Source of the DNA: a virus
Lineage: Duplodnaviria; Caudoviricetes
DNA length: 64,000 bases
IMG/VR virus record: IMGVR_UViG_3300033069_001745
Location: 17,161-81,160 of that record
Strand: one strand, 5' to 3'
Each line of letters starts with the position of its first letter. Within the stretch, counting starts at the first letter, position 1. The position numbers and the translations under genes were made by a program. The notes beneath the pieces are model-generated. The model saw nothing but the letters and a program-made list of their open reading frames with translations, made no database searches and was not told where the DNA came from. Below, one piece after another: positions 1,189 through 56,350 of the stretch.

Positions 1189-4100
1189 GTGGCTGTTGAC
1201 TTCAGGGCGCTCTATCTCCAGAAGTACCCAGCGGGCGGGACCACGCTCTATGTCAGCGCGTCCGGCAACGACTCGAACCCCGGAACTCAGGCCAGCCCCA
1301 AGCGCCAGATCCAATCCGCCATCAACGCCATGCCTTCAGGCGGCGGCATCATTTACGTTGGTGACGGTAACTACGACGGTTTTTCGTTCTACGCCCGGAA
1401 CTTCAGTGCCAATAGCTGGTGTCACGTCATCTCCCAGAATTACCTGGGGGCAAAGATCGGCGGTGGTATCGGATTCACTCAGAGTAGCTTCGCTGGCATC
1501 TTCGGTCTCGAAGTCAACCCGAACAACCAGGGTGTCAACTGCGTCAGCATCCAGACGACGACGCACAACATCGCAGTGTGGCGGTGCTGGACCCGTAACG
1601 GCCAGGTCGGCATCGGTGCCATGGGCAACCAGGGCGACAGCTCAGCGGCGTGCAACAACGTCTACATCTGCTACAACATCGTCAGCGACAACGCCAAGGC
1701 CACGGTTGACCCTTTCGGCTCCAGTGGTATCAGCTTCTACGACCCGTGGCAGAAGGCGATCTTCCCAGCGAGCACGGGCCCCGACCAGTACGGCTACAGC
1801 AATTACATCGTCGGAAATCTCGTCGTCTGGAACTACCAGAACGGCGAATATGTAGACGGTAATGGCATCATCATCGACGATGGCAACCACACGCAGAACT
1901 ATGGTGGCCCGTCGGGCAATGTCTACACCGAACGTACCCTCGTCATGGGTAATCTCACCGTCAAGAACGGTGGGCGAGGTATCCAGATCTTTGAGACGAG
2001 AAATGTTGACGTCGCCTTCAACACCTCGGCGTACAACAGTTGGAGGAAGAACGATTCTGCCTTCTACGGCGAAATCGGGTATAACGCAGCCTGGGGCGGG
2101 CGCATGCTGCACAACCTCTCGTACCCCGATGCCAACAATGCCTATTGGTTCAGCTACTACAACGCTGATGACATCGAGAACACCGGCAACGTGTTCCTGC
2201 GGGGCCCGCAGTACAACGCCAACGGCAACTACCCAGCGATTGACCGTACTGCTGACGGGCTGAACTACTTCAAGAACAACGCTCCGACGGTCTCGTCTGA
2301 GTGGTCGGGGATGACCTTCACTCAGGCCGACCAGTGGCGCCCTGACGGCGGCTCGGGCGGGATCAACAAGGTCACACTCTCCCAGACGCTCTACGACGCC
2401 TTCTCGCCCTGGCCCGACATGTTCGGTGACCTGCGCCCGGCTCGCACCACGGGATGGGCCACCGGGTTCTCCGAGAGCACAGGCGGTACGGGGACCAACC
2501 CCGGCCCGGTGGCTGCGTTCACCGTGTCGAATCTCACCCCGGGTACCGGCGAGGCCGTCCAGTTCACCGACACCTCGACCGGTAGCCCGACCTCGTGGAA
2601 CTGGAACTTCGGCAACGGCGCTTCGTCGACTTCCCAGAGCCCGAGCTATACCTTCACCACGGCGGGCACCTACACGGTCGTCTTGACCGCGACGAACACC
2701 AATGGGTCGTCACAGTCCACCCAGTCCGTCGTGGTCTCCGAGACCACCCAGGGCCCGGGGCTCGTCACGCACCCCGCCCTGGGCAAGCCTGGTCACTTGC
2801 TGACCTCAACTCAGGTCAGCACGACCAACTCGGGCCACCCGATCTATCGCATCAGCTATCAGATGACCTCGATCACGGGGACGATCGTCTCTGCCTCGGG
2901 TCTCGTGGCGGTGCCGTCGGGTACCGCCCCGAGTGATGGTCGACGGGTGATCCTGGCGGGCCACGGGGCCACCGGCACCAACGATGCGGCAGCGCCGTCC
3001 TATAGCCCGAACACTGGGGCGTTCTCGGGCTCGGTAGGCGATGTGGACGCCTGGCTCAACGCCGGGTTCATCGTGGCCCAGGCCGACTACGAGGGTCTCA
3101 CCTACGGGGGCGACAGCAGCTTGCCCCACCCGTACATGGTGGGTGTCTCCGCCGGGCGTTCACTCCTCGACTGCGGCATCGCCTGCTCCGGTCTGACCAC
3201 CGTCCGGCGCTCGGCCGCCTCGGTGGGCTTCTCCCAGGGTGGACACGCTTCGCTCTTCGCCGGTGAGCTGGCCGACACCTACGCGGTGACCGATTCGGGT
3301 TCGGTCGAGTTCAACGTTCCCGCATTTCCTTCGGGAACCCCGATCAACGTCACCACGCTCGGGGTCTCGGCGTCATCGGGGGCCAACCAGCAGACCGCCA
3401 TTCAGAACGCGTTGAACAACGCGGCGAGCGGGTCGATCATCCAGTTCCCCGCCGGGACCTATTTGCACTCCGGCGTGCTCCAGATCAACAAGCCACTCAC
3501 CATCTTCACGACGGCCGGGGCCATCTTGCGCGGTACCGATCCGCTCAACATGGCGATCCAGGTCAATGCCGATGACGTTCGCATCGAGGGGTTCACCGTC
3601 GAGGGCGTTGGCACCTCGCGTGAGAGCAACGACGACACCCGAGGCGGCATCGCCATCTTGGGCCGGGCCCGTACGGTCATCAAGGGCTGCACGATCAAGA
3701 AGTCGAGCGCTGCCGGTCTGTACATCGACGGGGCCAGCGATTACTACATCATCAACAACAGCGTGCAGAACACGCTCTCTGACTCGATCCACAACACCGG
3801 TTCGTCGCACCACGGCTACGTGCTGAACAACACCGTCACCGGTTCGGGCGATGACAACATCGCTATCGTCAGCTACGGCGGCCAGGACTGCAACAACATC
3901 ACCGTGTTCGGAAACACCGTGACCGGTGGCAACGCCCGTGGTCTCTCGGTCGTCGGTGGGCGCGACTGCATCTTGCAGGGCAACACCGTCACCAGCTCGT
4001 CAGCGGCGGGCATCTACATTGCTTCCGAGCCTAGCTATTCGACGGAAGGCGTCTCGAATATCATCATTCGAGATAATGCGCTCTCTGGGTGTAATACCGA

Positions 4101-13764: not shown

Positions 13765-13915
13765 TTCAATGCGTCAGACAAACACGAAGGAGCTTCAGTG
13801 CGTCCTAGACCAGAGGTGAACCGTCCTAGACCAGAGGTGAACCTCAGTGCGTCCTAGACCAGAGGTGAACCTCAGTGCGTCCTAGACTCGGAAGGAGCTT
13901 CAGTGCGTCCTAGAC
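13765..13915 (+). repeat. Iteron-like direct repeat array (CGTCCTAGAC core, 28-bp period)
   Basis: Core at 13801, 13822, 13850, 13878 and 13906, plus a degenerate copy at 13772. A 25-bp perfect repeat occurs at 13786-13810 and 13891-13915. Confidence 0.9.
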
Positions 13916-15099
13916 AATCTACCGCAGATCTGGTAACGGGCGCAAGCCCTAGGCCACCGAAACCTCGACTCGACACCGATCATCACTGCGACGTGATGGG
14001 GTGGTTCGAGCGCCCGGGGGACGAGAAGCTCGTGCTGAAGCGACTCTTCTGCCGCCAGACCACCTGCCGGACCTGCTGGGAGATCAGGGTTCCGGTCCTC
14101 CTGGAGGACGTAGATTTTCTTTTCTTCGAGCCGGATGAGATGCCGAAGAAGAAGAACTGGCATCACTACGTGTTCCCGCCCATGCACCACCGCAAGCGCC
14201 GGGACACGTGGGTGGGGTGCTTCGAGCCCGCCGACGCCGAAGAGCGTCAGAGCATCCTGGATCGGTGGTCCGACCGGAAGCGCAAGAGCTTGCCCGATGT
14301 GTCCTACTTCTGGATCGAGGACCTCGAAGACCGCATGTGGCTCTTCGCTGACCAGGACATGTCACTGCGCAAGTTCGGCAAGCGCCGGGCCTTCGAGTGC
14401 CTCCTCTACCCGGCGAGCTGGTCAGGCTTCGGGCCTTGGAACCAGCTCGAAGAGATTGTCAAGCCGGGGTACAAGACTCGCTCGGCCACCTTCGAGCTGC
14501 GCGACTACGCTGTGATCACCAACTGGCGTGAGCGAGACCCCAACCGCGAGAAGCACACGCTGGTGGCGGTGGTGCCGAGCGGGGTGGCCGGTGAAGCCAA
14601 CCGGCTGGCTTGGGAAGCCCGGGGCGTAGATGACGGCGACTCCCAGCCCGAGGGCCAACCCTCGCTGGTCGGGAACATCCCCGACGACCTCTCCGCGAAC
14701 GAGGTGGTGGTACACCTCGACCAGGCCCGCTCCACGATGATCAAGCGCAAGATGGGGATGACCGACGAGCGGGTGCGCTGCCTCAGCATCTCGGCCGCTC
14801 GGTACAACCTGCGCCGGGTTGCCGCCGGGGCGGAAGACTTCGTGCTCCCGGGCTCCATGGTGGACGAACCCATGCCGGTGATCGAGCCCGAGGTTTCGAG
14901 CTTCCGGCCGGTAGTGGTTCCTGGGGGCACCCCGGCTCCTCGGGCTGGGTCTGGGCCGTCAGGAGCATCACCGCCGAGGTTCGGTCGGGTACCGAAGCCT
15001 CAGGCGAGCCCGGCCAAACAGCGAGCCTTGCTGCGCTGGTGGGCAGGCCAGGACGCCCGACCTCTGACGGCATCACACCGGGTGGTGCTCAGGGAATGA
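13903..15099 (+). CDS. Hypothetical protein, possible replication initiator/DNA-binding protein
   Basis: SD GAAGGAG plus GTG start inside the last repeat; N-terminal C-x4-C-x2-C motif. Function is inferred only from context. Confidence 0.55.
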   Translation: MRPRQSTADLVTGASPRPPKPRLDTDHHCDVMGWFERPGDEKLVLKRLFCRQTTCRTCWEIRVPVLLEDVDFLFFEPDEMPKKKNWHHYVFPPMHHRKRRDTWVGCFEPADAEERQSILDRWSDRKRKSLPDVSYFWIEDLEDRMWLFADQDMSLRKFGKRRAFECLLYPASWSGFGPWNQLEEIVKPGYKTRSATFELRDYAVITNWRERDPNREKHTLVAVVPSGVAGEANRLAWEARGVDDGDSQPEGQPSLVGNIPDDLSANEVVVHLDQARSTMIKRKMGMTDERVRCLSISAARYNLRRVAAGAEDFVLPGSMVDEPMPVIEPEVSSFRPVVVPGGTPAPRAGSGPSGASPPRFGRVPKPQASPAKQRALLRWWAGQDARPLTASHRVVLRE

Positions 15100-53266: not shown

Positions 53267-53571
53267 GCACGGAGTTTCCATTTCTACGAGACCTTCGGGC
53301 GTTTACGCAGGGCGAGGCCATTTGCTTTGCCGTGTTGGCAGCGATGCGGTCGGTTTCCCGGGGAATGTACGGCTACTACCCATTCCTGGGGGATGAGTCG
53401 TGGTCGCTCTTTCAGCGGGCTACCGACACCATCCACGATGAACTGGTCGACATCCGAGACAAGTACCCAGACCACGGGCTGTGGACTGACGACGAGGCGC
53501 TCTGGGCTGAGTCGGTGATGGAGCGAATCGTGGATATGCAAAGAGTTGTGATGGGTGATGGGTGTGCCTGA
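53263..53571 (+). CDS. Hypothetical protein
   Basis: SD GAGG; ATGA coupling. Confidence 0.6.
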   Translation: MSTEFPFLRDLRAFTQGEAICFAVLAAMRSVSRGMYGYYPFLGDESWSLFQRATDTIHDELVDIRDKYPDHGLWTDDEALWAESVMERIVDMQRVVMGDGCA

Positions 53572-53938
53572 CGGTGGGTTCTCGCTCACCCAGAACCAAG
53601 CCAGAGAGTTGGCTGATGAACCTCGCATCGTGGTGAATGAGCGCACCGGCGGGATGAAGGAGACCAAGCTCGAACGCTTCGATCTCATCCCGCCCGACGT
53701 GCTCGCCCTCCTGGCTCGGCACTACGGCCGGGGAGCGGAGAAGTACGCCCCCAACCAGTGGCGCAAGGGCTACGACTGGAGCTTGAGCTACGCAGCGCTC
53801 CAGCGCCACCTCAACGCTTACTGGGGCGGGGAGGAGGATACCGAGACGGGCTCGCTCCACCTCATAGCGGCCGCGTGGCACTGCTTCACGCTCACGTGGT
53901 TCTCCGGTCATCATCCCGAGCTGGATGACCGCCCGTAG
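53555..53938 (+). CDS. dATP/dGTP diphosphohydrolase (DUF5664-like)
   Basis: 'RFDLIPP...LARHYGRGAEKYAPNQWRKG...LQRHL..YWGGE..D.ETG..HL..AAW'. Confidence 0.8.
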   Translation: MMGVPDGGFSLTQNQARELADEPRIVVNERTGGMKETKLERFDLIPPDVLALLARHYGRGAEKYAPNQWRKGYDWSLSYAALQRHLNAYWGGEEDTETGSLHLIAAAWHCFTLTWFSGHHPELDDRP

Positions 53939-53945
53939 GTCTCAT

Positions 53946-54020
53946 GGCGACGCCGGGCCAGGAGGGGTGAGGAACGGTATGGCGAGGCGGCGTATGGCTG
54001 GGACCGGAAGGGCAAGGCAG
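53946..54020 (+). repeat. Pentamer array 1 (15 x GGY-NN), putative guide RNA
   Basis: GGCga CGCcg GGCca GGAgg GGTga GGAac GGTat GGCga GGCgg CGTat GGCtg GGAcc GGAag GGCaa GGCag; non-coding. Confidence 0.88.
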
Positions 54021-54051
54021 GGGCAGTACACACAACAGTCTCATTCTTCAC

Positions 54052-54101
54052 GGTGAGGTCTGGCGTGGCATGGTTTGGAGCGGCATCGCAAGGCAAGGTT
54101 A
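54052..54101 (+). repeat. Pentamer array 2 (10 x GGY-NN), putative guide RNA
   Basis: GGTga GGTct GGCgt GGCat GGTtt GGAgc GGCat CGCaa GGCaa GGTta, preceded by ATTCTTCAC. Confidence 0.88.
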
Positions 54102-54124
54102 TAATAACCCGATAATTATCCATC

Positions 54125-54170
54125 TGTCATGATATGACATGAGAAATCTAGAGTAGAGATGTTCTAGATT
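54125..54170. promoter_or_regulatory. Two inverted repeats in the AT-rich leader of the RAMP gene (operator candidates)
   Basis: TGTCAT-gat-ATGACA (54125-54139) and AATCTAGA-N10-TCTAGATT (54145-54170). Confidence 0.45.
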
Positions 54171-54235
54171 GCCGTGAAGTCTGATCGCACATCTGCTAGA
54201 AATTTCTGTGTTCAAAGGTTGAGAGGAAGATCGCT

Positions 54236-54859
54236 ATGAAGAGGGTTTCGTTGGATATCACCGGGGTGGGGCCAATGCTGATGCACAGTGATCGGCTCGC
54301 TAATCCCCGTGACCCCATCGTGCGTGAGATCAAGCTCATCACGTCGAAGCGCACGATGACCGACGAGGACCTCGACGAGAAGTCTTGGCTGGAGTTCCAG
54401 GGTGGGCTGTACTGGTTCGAGGGCGCGGCCGACGAGATCGGCGGGGTCTACCTGCCCGCCTGGAACTTCAAGCGGTCCTTCCAAGATGGAGCGAAGATCA
54501 ACCGCCTGGGGCAACACGTGTCCCGTGGGGTGGCTCTGCTTCATGAGCGATGCATGCTCAACTTCCCGGGCCGAGATCACGCATCGGGTGTGCGCAAGAC
54601 CGAAGCAGACCTCTTTGCCGAGGGCACTCGGTTCGCCTACACCTGTCTCGTCGGGGTGCAGAATAGTCGGGTGCTCCGGACTCGACCGAAGTTCGTCGGC
54701 TGGAGCACCAACATCACCGTGGCTGTTGACCCCATGGTGCTCGATGTCGACGGTTTTGTAGACATCGCTGCTCGGGCCGGGCGTATGGTTGGCATCGGTG
54801 ACTTCCGTCAACAGTATGGGCGATTCGAGGTGTCGAATGTTTCAATCGAAGATCTCTGA
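54236..54859 (+). CDS. Standalone RAMP/Cas7(Csm3)-like protein
   Basis: N-terminal beta strand 'LDITGVGPMLMH'; 'YLPAWNFKRSF' (cf. RAMP 'IPGSSLKG'); 'RTRPKFVGWSTNITV'; C-terminal G-rich loop 'AGRMVGIGDFRQQYGRFEV'. Confidence 0.75.
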   Translation: MKRVSLDITGVGPMLMHSDRLANPRDPIVREIKLITSKRTMTDEDLDEKSWLEFQGGLYWFEGAADEIGGVYLPAWNFKRSFQDGAKINRLGQHVSRGVALLHERCMLNFPGRDHASGVRKTEADLFAEGTRFAYTCLVGVQNSRVLRTRPKFVGWSTNITVAVDPMVLDVDGFVDIAARAGRMVGIGDFRQQYGRFEVSNVSIEDL

Positions 54860-55322
54860 TGGGCCAGCCCAGTGGGAACGCCTGCGCGACCTCGTGCAGG
54901 GGTCTCCGCCGGGAACCCTCTTCGACTTCGATGTGCTGACCGAAGCGATCGAGTGCAGCCGGGATCAGGTGAGCGCGATCGTCTTCCAGCTCAACAAGAA
55001 GATGCCGTCAACCGGCATACGGCTGGTCAGCGTGCCCTCTCGGGGCTATGCCGTGGCTACGGCGGGCGACAAGTTGCGGGAGGCCACCCTGGTGCGCCCA
55101 AAGAAGATTCAGCGCCAGGTGCTCTACACCATCCAGGCGGCGGAGTCGGTGCTCCATGGCCCAGACGCTTCACCGGATGAGCAGGAGTCGGCCATGAAGG
55201 TGGCCACCGAGAGTTCCAGTGTTCTTCTGTGGGCCAAAGACCGCAGTCGCATGGTTTCTCGGATGATGAAGAACGGCAAGAGAAACGATGTTTCTCAAAG
55301 CGGTATGCCAATCATCGAGTAA
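54837..55322 (+). CDS. Winged-helix DNA-binding protein coupled to the RAMP gene
   Basis: SD GAGGTG plus ATG 54837; 'VLTEAIECSRDQVSAIVFQLNKKM...IRLVSVPSRGYAV' is an OmpR/PhoB-like wing. Confidence 0.65.
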   Translation: MFQSKISDGPAQWERLRDLVQGSPPGTLFDFDVLTEAIECSRDQVSAIVFQLNKKMPSTGIRLVSVPSRGYAVATAGDKLREATLVRPKKIQRQVLYTIQAAESVLHGPDASPDEQESAMKVATESSSVLLWAKDRSRMVSRMMKNGKRNDVSQSGMPIIE

Positions 55323-55330
55323 TTCTTCGC

Positions 55331-55435
55331 GGCCTGGCAGGGTAATACGTGGCAGGGAGCGGCTTGGTTCTGAACGGCTAGGTATGGCAGGGGTTGGTTC
55401 GGAGCGGCGAGGCATGGCATGGCTAGAACGGGTAA
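55331..55435 (+). repeat. Pentamer array 3 (21 x GGY-NN), putative guide RNA
   Basis: GGCct GGCag GGTaa TACgt GGCag GGAgc GGCtt GGTtc TGAac GGCta GGTat GGCag GGGtt GGTtc GGAgc GGCga GGCat GGCat GGCta GAAcg GGTaa, preceded by ATTCTTCGC. Confidence 0.9.
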
Positions 55436-55454
55436 ATAAGACGGAGATGAATTA

Positions 55455-55997
55455 ATGGCACCGTTTGTATTTATTGATCAGGAGATGCGTGAGGCGACTC
55501 CTGAAATATTCACGGCGGAAAAACCCTGGACATCCGAGCTGGACGGGGCCGTCTTTGAAGCCTCGGGACTCCAGTGCATGCTGCTTCGAGGCAGTTTTCA
55601 CGTGTGGTGCGGGTACGTCGGGGTACCGGAGGGCCACCTGGCCTATCAACGCATGGAGACCGAATGCCTGATCACCGAGGCGCCGTGCGTAGGGCTCGCA
55701 TACTGCGAGCACTCGCTGGGGCACATCCTGCGGGTACATGGAGGTATCTCCTTTGCGGGGTTCATGCAGTTCGTGAAGGAAGGGACGCCGCTGCCCCGAG
55801 ATATCTCGGACGGGCTCGATCCCTTGTGGTTCTTCGGCTTCGATGCCACCCACAGCGGTGATGCCATCCCCGGGGTTCCCGAGTTCATCGGGACCTACAG
55901 AACACAGCAGTACATGCTCTCCCAGGTGGAGCGTCTGGCCGAGCAGTTGGCCGAGCTACAGCGTGGGGCGGAGTCGATCACCGGGGGCAAGCAATGA
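55455..55997 (+). CDS. Conserved phage hypothetical protein
   Basis: 'WCGYVGVP...VHGGISF...WFFGFDATH.GD' pattern. Confidence 0.7.
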   Translation: MAPFVFIDQEMREATPEIFTAEKPWTSELDGAVFEASGLQCMLLRGSFHVWCGYVGVPEGHLAYQRMETECLITEAPCVGLAYCEHSLGHILRVHGGISFAGFMQFVKEGTPLPRDISDGLDPLWFFGFDATHSGDAIPGVPEFIGTYRTQQYMLSQVERLAEQLAELQRGAESITGGKQ

Positions 55998-56350
55998 AGA
56001 TGCGCATCAATGGCCGGTGCCCGATGGGGTGCGGCGATGCGTTGGCCGTTCAACTGCCCGAGAACCTGGCGGCCCTGGCGACCCCGGTGGACATCACCTG
56101 TGAAGACCCCAACTGCCGGAACCCGAAGGCGGTGACGGTGATCTTGCGCGACGACTCCCCGGGCGAGCACATCGTCGAGCTGTACGACGAGACCTTCTCG
56201 ATCCAGCATCCCCTGGAAGAGCGCATCTACGGCAGCCTCTTCAACTGCGGTATGCACGCCTGGCTCCAGGAGCAGTCCGAGCCCCCGCAACCCACGGGGC
56301 GCTACCGCGTGAGGTTCGGTGCGTCTTCGATCACGTGGTTGCCCGCCTGA
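55994..56350 (+). CDS. Hypothetical protein with Cys motifs
   Basis: CPMGCG, CEDPNC; ATGA coupling. Confidence 0.65.
   Translation: MKMRINGRCPMGCGDALAVQLPENLAALATPVDITCEDPNCRNPKAVTVILRDDSPGEHIVELYDETFSIQHPLEERIYGSLFNCGMHAWLQEQSEPPQPTGRYRVRFGASSITWLPA

What the first reader, a model, noticed from the sequence alone, without database searches (positions are those of the whole stretch)
53939..55440. Phage RAMP/Cas7-like protein flanked by three GGY-NN pentamer arrays: candidate RNA-guided system with a non-contiguous code
Seen: the layout is array1(15 units)-array2(10)-AT-rich leader-RAMP gene-wHTH gene-array3(21). Across 46 units the 5-nt phase never slips; 40/46 start with GG and 32/46 are GGY, while the last two bases vary freely. 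A period of 5 cannot be codon structure, and all arrays are intergenic, on the same strand as the RAMP gene. The 207-aa protein has the RAMP N-terminal strand and C-terminal G-rich loop (GIGDFR..YGRFEV). There is no cas1/2, Cas5/6, nuclease or repeat-spacer CRISPR nearby. Established: Cas7-family RAMPs polymerise on guide RNA with a fixed per-subunit step and flip out one base. Inference: one subunit binds each GGY anchor and presents NN for pairing, giving a minimal nuclease-free programmable binder or silencer, probably against competing phages or host genes. From memory this resembles the recently reported viral 'VIPR' systems (GGY/NN RNAs); that should be verified before claiming novelty.
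Basis: partly seen in the sequence, partly recalled or inferred. Interest (0 to 1): 0.97.

Follow-up and report, generated by a model that had tools for sequence, protein, structure and literature searches.

The report
Phage VIPR RNA-guided silencing locus

Summary
Three same-strand arrays of 5-nt GGNNN units (16, 10 and 21 units; 41/47 start with GG, 32/47 are GGY) flank a two-gene operon. They are the only such arrays in the 81-kb viral record, on either strand.

The downstream 161-aa gene is a winged-helix protein that matches the vap1 accessory family only at profile level (hhalign 84%, E 8e-6).

Homologous loci in SUSP1, Medea1, LittleE, Trine and four metagenome contigs all carry same-strand GGY/NN arrays.

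This copy lies in an uncultivated actinophage-like genome and shares at most 44% identity with any other Vipr. Possibly distinctive features are compact arrays, a 5' leader motif and frequent GGA units.

No natural target was found. Verdict: a new member of a known kind, of modest interest.

The parts
53946..54025 (+). vrRNA array 1: 16 pentamer units (14 GG, 9 GGY). It ends in a GGGCA unit, like the terminal GGG units of other VIPR arrays. It may hold two guides, split at the GGAAC unit (53971-53975).
54026..54051 (+). 26-nt spacer between arrays 1 and 2. Its 3' part is the start of the leader motif TTCTTCACGG (54044-54053).
   Evidence: In the genome the motif TTCTTC[AG]CGG occurs only at 54044 and 55323, directly before arrays 2 and 3. 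A similar TTC-rich leader precedes the arrays in the closest homologue's loci L008 and L009.
54052..54101 (+). vrRNA array 2: 10 units (9 GG, 8 GGY). The last unit can pair with the following bases as a short hairpin.
54102..54235 (+). AT-rich leader (38.8% GC). It holds four palindromes that are unique in the genome and a TATAAT at 54100-54105. It is probably the vipr promoter/operator region and/or the structured 3' tail of vrRNA 2. The stretch 54040-54185 folds with a closing stem between the array-2 leader and 54171-54181 (z -2.5; 2 of 200 shuffles fold as well).
   Evidence: function is inferred
54236..54859 (+). vipr gene, 207 aa: a Cas7-like RAMP that polymerises on the guide RNA.
54837..55322 (+). 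vap gene, 161 aa from the ATG at 54837 (overlaps vipr by 23 nt). It has an N-terminal winged helix and a C-terminal helical hairpin, and is a divergent vap1-like accessory protein.
55331..55435 (+). vrRNA array 3: 21 units (18 GG, 15 GGY), preceded by the leader TTCTTCGCGG (55323-55332). It is probably two guides, 55331-55370 and 55376-55425, split at the degenerate unit TGAAC.
   Evidence: (61-nt register family D1)

Best explanation
The locus is a type II-like VIPR (Viral Interference Programmable Repeat) system carried by an uncultivated actinophage-like virus.

Proposed working, by analogy with SUSP1:
1. The arrays are transcribed into vrRNAs.
2. One Vipr protomer binds each pentamer. H17 and D189 read G1. 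R150 and F190 hold G2. R191 and the G-loop hold position 3. The two variable bases are left exposed.
3. The filament pairs these NN dinucleotides with double-stranded DNA that carries NN-x-NN-x (a 1-nt skip).
4. Binding blocks transcription of the bound gene, probably in a competing phage, prophage or satellite.
5. The winged-helix Vap1-like protein assists.

Shown here: homology, fold, conserved GGY-reading residues, array statistics, and conserved locus architecture across relatives.

Inferred: transcription and processing of the arrays, RNP formation, the skip rule in this clade, silencing, and the identity of the targets.
For: Protein homology:
- Full-length match to the solved SUSP1 Vipr and to the SUSP1 genome, at the gene flanked by the published one-upstream, three-downstream vrRNA arrays.
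- The family has 2055 cluster representatives at E<=1e-3.

Fold and residues:
- RAMP fold with high confidence.
- Residues shown by cryo-EM and mutagenesis to read GGY and to contact DNA are conserved.

Arrays:
- Three significant same-strand GGY/NN arrays flank the operon.
- Same-strand arrays occur next to homologues in SUSP1, Medea1, LittleE, Trine, L005, L008, L009 and L014.
- L008 and L009 encode the identical Vipr but differ in their NN bases. This fits programmable guides.

Accessory gene and context:
- The downstream genes of ten homologous loci form one family (vap1). The window's gene matches that family's profile.
- There is no self-target under the 1-nt skip rule, as the paper reports for other systems.
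Against: - There is no expression or binding data for this locus.
- The arrays are more degenerate than in relatives: only 32/47 units are GGY and 9/47 have A at position 3.
- The residues that form the pyrimidine pocket in SUSP1 (E71, M72, C173) differ here (W76, N77, V185).
- No long conserved 3' tail or pseudoknot of the SUSP1 kind is evident after arrays 1 and 3.
- No convincing natural target was found in IMG/VR, GTDB species genomes or JGI metagenomes.
- The vap assignment rests on one profile comparison at 84% probability and on a low-confidence model.
Confidence: 0.88

Rival explanations
1. It is a VIPR-derived locus that is decaying or has been repurposed. The protein is intact, but the guides are degenerate remnants that no longer direct silencing.
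For: Fifteen of 47 units depart from GGY. Several units break the pattern altogether (TACGT, TGAAC, GAACG). No target was found in any collection. The SUSP1 pyrimidine-pocket residues are not conserved.
Against: The ORF is intact and all G1/G2-reading and DNA-contact residues are kept. SUSP1's functional vrRNAs also contain degenerate units, and the paper notes frequent internal degeneracy. The vipr-vap operon structure is intact. Failing to find a target is expected when the host and its mobile elements are not sampled.
Confidence: 0.07
2. The arrays act at the DNA level, as phased binding sites for the winged-helix protein or another factor (iteron- or operator-like), and not as guide RNAs.
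For: A 5-bp period is half a helical turn. The adjacent AT-rich leader is full of palindromes, and a DNA-binding protein is encoded in the operon.
Against: In every homologous locus examined the arrays sit on the vipr coding strand, which points to an RNA product. In SUSP1 they are transcribed, co-purify with Vipr, and are seen as RNA in cryo-EM structures. The window protein keeps the RNA-reading residues.
Confidence: 0.02
3. It is a working VIPR, but with altered rules: a different skip length, RNA targets, or a unit code other than GGY/NN.
For: Identity to SUSP1 Vipr is only 28%. The position-3 pocket residues differ and GGA units are common. The paper reports alternative repeat consensus sequences in other types and that Vipr filaments can also pair with RNA.
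Against: The thumb arginine, K33 (the skip-base backbone contact) and the G-loop motif are conserved. The accessory gene is vap1-like, as in type II, where the 1-nt skip was shown.
Confidence: 0.08

Closest known systems
Type II VIPR system of Escherichia phage SUSP1 (Vipr YP_009199429, vap1 YP_009199428; PDB 36pp). Sources: bioRxiv 10.64898/2026.04.26.720920 and 10.64898/2026.04.26.720927.
   Same: - Homologous Vipr over its full length (E 6e-19).
- The same GGY-reading residues.
- The same operon order, vipr then vap1-like.
- GGY/NN arrays both upstream and downstream on the coding strand.
- No cas genes and no CRISPR array; located in a phage genome.
   Different: - Only 28% identity.
- Host is likely an actinobacterium (62% GC).
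- Two arrays upstream and one long array downstream, against one and three in SUSP1.
- No long hairpin or pseudoknot tail after each array.
- A short TTC-rich leader before arrays 2 and 3.
- More units with a purine at position 3.
- The vap is recognisable only at profile level.
Unannotated VIPR loci of actinophages: Gordonia phage Trine (gp41, 39% identity) and Mycobacterium phage LittleE (gp34, 33%).
   Same: Closest cultured-phage homologues. They have high GC content, same-strand GGC/NN arrays and a vap1-family gene downstream.
   Different: Their arrays are almost pure GGC units. Each array is followed by a tRNA T-arm/acceptor-like minihelix, which the window lacks.
Metagenome loci L008 and L009, which encode the closest Vipr (P0016, 41% identity).
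   Same: Compact arrays separated by short spacers of 15-16 nt. They have a TTC-rich leader and a terminal GGG unit, like the window's array 1-to-2 junction.
   Different: All their arrays lie downstream of vipr and before the vap1-like gene. Their units are uniformly GGC.
Cas7-family RAMPs of class 1 CRISPR-Cas (Csm3, Cmr4, type VII Cas7).
   Different: Sequence identity is only 7-16%. There is no CRISPR array, no Cas5, Cas6 or Cas10, no adaptation genes and no nuclease. The step is 5 nt with three guide bases displaced, against 6 nt with one.

Membership tests
VIPR system | Vipr protein: a sequence homologue of characterised Vipr proteins | tested here: met
   PDB 36pp 'SUSP1 Vipr protein', E 6.2e-19, residues 1-202 of 207. 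tblastn to phiSUSP1, E 2e-19.
VIPR system | Residues that read G1, G2 and Y3 and that contact DNA (SUSP1 H17, R138, D177, W178, R179, K33, R39, K82) | tested here: met
   Window H17, R150, D189, F190 (aromatic kept), R191, K33, R39 and K87. The pocket residues E71, M72 and C173 are not conserved (W76, N77, V185).
VIPR system | Tandem YNNGG (GGY/NN) repeats of at least 4 units in the intergenic regions flanking vipr, on its strand | tested here: met
   Arrays of 16, 10 and 21 units, well above the genome and shuffle background.
VIPR system | Minimal locus with a vap accessory gene and without a CRISPR array or cas genes | tested here: met
   vap1-like gene. No repeat-spacer array in the 81 kb. 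No Cas1. No PADLOC, NCBIfam or Pfam Cas hits on the operon or its neighbours. Other cas families were not searched individually.
VIPR system | vrRNAs are transcribed, processed and bound by Vipr | not testable with these tools
   Needs small-RNA sequencing and pull-down.
VIPR system | Conserved structured 3' tail after the repeat tract | tested here: inconclusive
   The flank of array 2 folds into hairpins with a closing stem (z -2.5). The flanks of arrays 1 and 3 fold no better than shuffles. There are no close relatives for covariation analysis.
VIPR system | Natural targets that match the NN code under the 1-nt skip rule | tested here: inconclusive
   There is no self-target. Exact 10-unit patterns gave 0, 0 and 1 hits in IMG/VR, 1 in GTDB genomes and 2 in metagenomes. 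All hits were in 44-48% GC, non-actinobacterial DNA, at about the number expected by chance. Searching with mismatches at that scale was not possible.
VIPR type II (SUSP1 / P. fulva type) | vap1 accessory gene encoding a DNA-binding (winged-helix-like) protein directly downstream of vipr | tested here: met
CRISPR-Cas class 1 effector | CRISPR repeat-spacer array and partner cas genes (Cas5, Cas6, large subunit, Cas1/2) | tested here: not met
   the neighbouring genes are phage genes of unknown function.

The most novel reading that the evidence does not exclude
This locus, together with its nearest metagenomic relatives L008 and L009, may represent a distinct VIPR sub-architecture with these features:
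- Guides of about 10 units are strung together in or near phase.
- They are delimited by a short TTC-rich 5' leader and single degenerate units, rather than by long hairpin, pseudoknot, ribozyme or tRNA-like tails.
- The position-3 pocket is relaxed and accepts A (9/47 units).
- An invariant GGAGC/GGACC unit sits at unit 6 of four modules.
- The vap1 is highly diverged.

If true, vrRNA maturation and unit recognition would differ from the characterised type II systems.
Probability: 0.25. Interest if true: 0.45.

Novelty: new member of a known kind. Interest (0 to 1): 0.3.

Why it matters
VIPR is a very recent discovery: a programmable DNA binder with a gapped code, proposed to be ancestral to the CRISPR RAMPs. 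This locus adds a divergent example from an actinophage-like virus. It shows that the GG-reading residues persist at 28% identity while the pyrimidine pocket and the guide architecture drift. That is useful for defining the minimal code and for developing tools in high-GC hosts such as mycobacteria. It opens no new question by itself.

Tried and rejected
Target searches
- Self-targeting was tested at skips of 0-3 nt. Only the arrays themselves matched, at skip 3.
- Exact 1-nt-skip patterns were run for three 10-unit modules.
  - Modules 53976-54025 and 55376-55425 gave no hit in IMG/VR.
  - Array 2 gave one hit in IMG/VR, one in GTDB genomes and two in metagenomes.
  - Two of the array-2 hits are the same endolysin/spanin junction of a 44-46% GC proteobacterial phage. 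The other two are unrelated.
  - I read all of these as chance, given 20 specified bases against about 10^12 positions and the wrong host group.
- No target was found in the fetched VIPR loci (at most 70% NN match).

Searches for relatives and known families
- Close relatives, wanted for NN-variability or covariation analysis, do not exist: there is no megablast hit in phages, one distant IMG/VR locus, and a best protein identity of 43-44%.
- Rfam gave nothing in the locus.
- There are no tRNA genes in the window.
- The sigma-70 and terminator scan gave nothing beyond chance.
- Pfam, NCBIfam and PADLOC do not yet hold the family.
- Pairwise BLASTP of the vap against SUSP1, LittleE and Medea1 vap1 was negative. 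Only the profile comparison found the link.

Readings rejected
- The arrays as coding repeats: a period of 5 is incompatible with codons, and the ORFs overlapping the arrays are just translations of the repeat.

Not possible
- The genome search 'relatives' is not available for a virus record.

Full report
**Observation**

Reading 53300-56200 and scanning for in-phase GG at a 5-nt period gives three + strand arrays:
- 53946-54025, 16 units
- 54052-54101, 10 units
- 55331-55435, 21 units

Of the 47 units, 41 start with GG and 32 are GGY. Positions 1 and 2 are G in 42 and 45 units. Position 3 is C in 24, T in 12, A in 9 and G in 2. Positions 4-5 use all bases and 16 different dinucleotides, and are 61% A/T in a genome that is 62% GC.

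The three arrays score 14, 11.5 and 7.5. Every other segment of the 81,160-bp genome scores at most 4 on either strand, and twenty shuffled genomes reached at most 6.5.

The arrays are intergenic and flank two overlapping genes on the same strand. Between array 2 and the first gene lies a 134-nt leader of 38.8% GC. It contains four palindromes found nowhere else in the genome. The phase shifts by one base between arrays 1 and 2.

**The protein**

The 207-aa ORF (54236-54859) has no Pfam, NCBIfam or PADLOC family, but it matches phrog_4652 (unknown function) at E 4e-40.

Against the sequences of solved structures it has one match: chain 36pp_D, "SUSP1 Vipr protein", at E 6.2e-19 over residues 1-202. 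By tblastn it hits 131 phage records. These include Gordonia phage Trine (39%), Pseudomonas phage Medea1 (37.5%), Mycobacterium phage LittleE (33%), and phiSUSP1 with its Felixounavirus-like relatives (28.6%).

A full HMMER scan of 1.84 billion cluster representatives finds 2055 relatives at E<=1e-3. None is above 44% identity.

The cryo-EM paper names the residues that read the repeat in SUSP1:
- H17 and D177 read G1.
- R138 and W178 hold G2.
- R179 holds Y3.
- K33, R39 and K82 contact DNA.

In the alignment the window has H17, D189, R150, F190, R191, K33, R39 and K87 at these columns. The residues that shape the pyrimidine-only pocket in SUSP1 (E71, M72, C173) are W76, N77 and V185 here.

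**The accessory gene**

The second ORF is best read from the ATG at 54837 (161 aa), overlapping vipr by 23 nt. It has no word-level homologue among 5.8 billion proteins and no pairwise similarity to SUSP1, LittleE or Medea1 vap1.

The genes downstream of vipr in ten other loci are mutually homologous. Against their alignment the window protein scores 84% probability, E 7.9e-6, over 98 columns. The match includes the conserved wing motif.

**Relatives carry the same arrays**

In SUSP1 the homologous gene is flanked by one array upstream and three downstream, as the paper describes.

Same-strand GGY/NN arrays also lie beside the homologues in Trine, LittleE, Medea1, IMG/VR locus L005, and metagenome loci L008, L009 and L014. 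Two AT-rich loci (L012, L013) and two very short contigs showed none at my threshold.

L008 and L009 encode the identical Vipr but differ in their NN bases and in the number of arrays. That is the behaviour expected of programmable guides.

**What is known**

Three 2026 preprints describe VIPR:
- 10.64898/2026.04.26.720920 covers the discovery, the 1-nt skip rule, silencing, seven types and vap1-6.
- 10.64898/2026.04.26.720927 reports cryo-EM of the filament and the R-loop triplex.
- 10.64898/2026.10.15.759431 covers phage-satellite competition.

The locus meets every defining feature that sequence can test. With its vap1-like gene it resembles type II. Formal typing needs the paper's phylogeny, which is not held here.

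**Context**

The record is a linear viral contig of 81,160 bp, with a CheckV completeness estimate of 57%. It is 61.9% GC.
- Its terminase is about 32% identical to those of Rhodococcus, Gordonia and Mycobacterium myophages.
- Its DnaE-like polymerase is about 29% identical to those of cluster-C-like mycobacteriophages.
- It has no nucleotide-level relative among 50,697 phage records.

The VIPR operon sits in a + strand block of small early or nucleotide-metabolism genes, directly after a dATP/dGTP-diphosphohydrolase-domain gene. The paper mined NCBI NR, so an uncultivated viral contig like this one is probably not in its set. I cannot verify that.

**Guide architecture (inferred)**

The motif TTCTTC[AG]CGG occurs only twice in the genome, directly before arrays 2 and 3. 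A TTC-rich leader also precedes each array in L008 and L009.

A 61-nt register family aligns three modules of about 10 units: 53968-54028, 54044-54104 and 55368-55428. Array 1 may therefore hold two guides, split at the GGAAC unit, and array 3 two guides, split at TGAAC.

In four modules the sixth unit is GGAGC or GGACC. The 8-mer GGAGCGGC occurs three times in the arrays and only three more times in the rest of the genome, counting both strands.

The 3' flank of array 2 can form a terminal-unit hairpin, two further hairpins and a closing stem with its own leader (z -2.5). The flanks of arrays 1 and 3 fold no better than shuffles. Only small-RNA sequencing can settle the boundaries.

**Targets**

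No site in the phage's own genome matches any guide under skips of 0-2 nt beyond shuffled controls.

Exact 1-nt-skip patterns gave the following:
- Two of the 10-unit modules found nothing in IMG/VR.
- Array 2 found four sites across IMG/VR, GTDB genomes and metagenomes.
- All four lie in DNA of 44-48% GC. Two are the same endolysin/spanin junction of a proteobacterial phage.
- This is about the number expected by chance and is the wrong host group.

The targets remain unknown. I could not run a mismatch-tolerant search at that scale.

**Verdict**

The system is a new, divergent member of a known and very recently published kind. The open points are guide boundaries, possible tolerance of a purine at position 3, vap divergence and targets. 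These are refinements and do not amount to a new category.

Noticed in passing
L003 (Mycobacterium phage LittleE) about 2235-2300, 2370-2430, 3700-3744, 3830-3896; L002 (Gordonia phage Trine) about 3085-3127 and 3205-3245: In these actinophage VIPR loci each GGC/NN array is followed by a short hairpin. After that comes a tRNA-like minihelix: a T-arm with a GTTCGA loop enclosed by an acceptor-like stem. This suggests that vrRNAs are cut out by tRNA-processing enzymes. The word tRNA does not occur in the discovery preprint, which mentions hammerhead-interspersed and staggered arrays. Rfam and ARAGORN do not call these elements as tRNAs, apart from one odd call in Trine.
   Followed up: partly
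L003 2063-2452 (LITTLEE_35, minus strand) and L002 3085-3888 (PBI_TRINE_40): These annotated hypothetical CDSs overlap vrRNA arrays. LITTLEE_35 is probably not a gene. The Trine vap1-like gene probably starts downstream of the array: only its C-terminal ~160 residues align with the vap1 family.
   Followed up: partly
L008 and L009 3756-4252: Two metagenome contigs encode a 100% identical Vipr but carry different sets of guides. The GGC anchors are the same while the NN bases and the array number differ. This is a natural example of guide turnover.
   Followed up: partly
window 54077, 55356, 55401: The 8-mer GGAGCGGC sits at the sixth unit of three 10-unit modules, and GGACC sits at the sixth unit of a fourth module in array 1. 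A fixed purine-containing unit at a fixed place in otherwise variable guides is unexplained.
   Followed up: no
window 13801-13875: Three direct copies of a motif of about 21 nt lie at spacings of 21 and 28 nt, just upstream of the ORF at 13903-15099. They could be an operator or an iteron-like site.
   Followed up: no
window 53555-53938: The gene directly upstream of array 1 carries the dATP/dGTP diphosphohydrolase N-terminal domain (PF18909, E 2e-30). The same domain lies a few genes upstream of vipr in the unrelated AT-rich locus L013.
   Followed up: no
L006 7543-7571 and L015 912-940: The array-2 code matches exactly, under the 1-nt skip, the endolysin/spanin overlap of a proteobacterial phage in two records. 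Both sequence differences between the two records fall on skip (wobble) positions. I judged this a chance match because the host group is wrong.
   Followed up: yes
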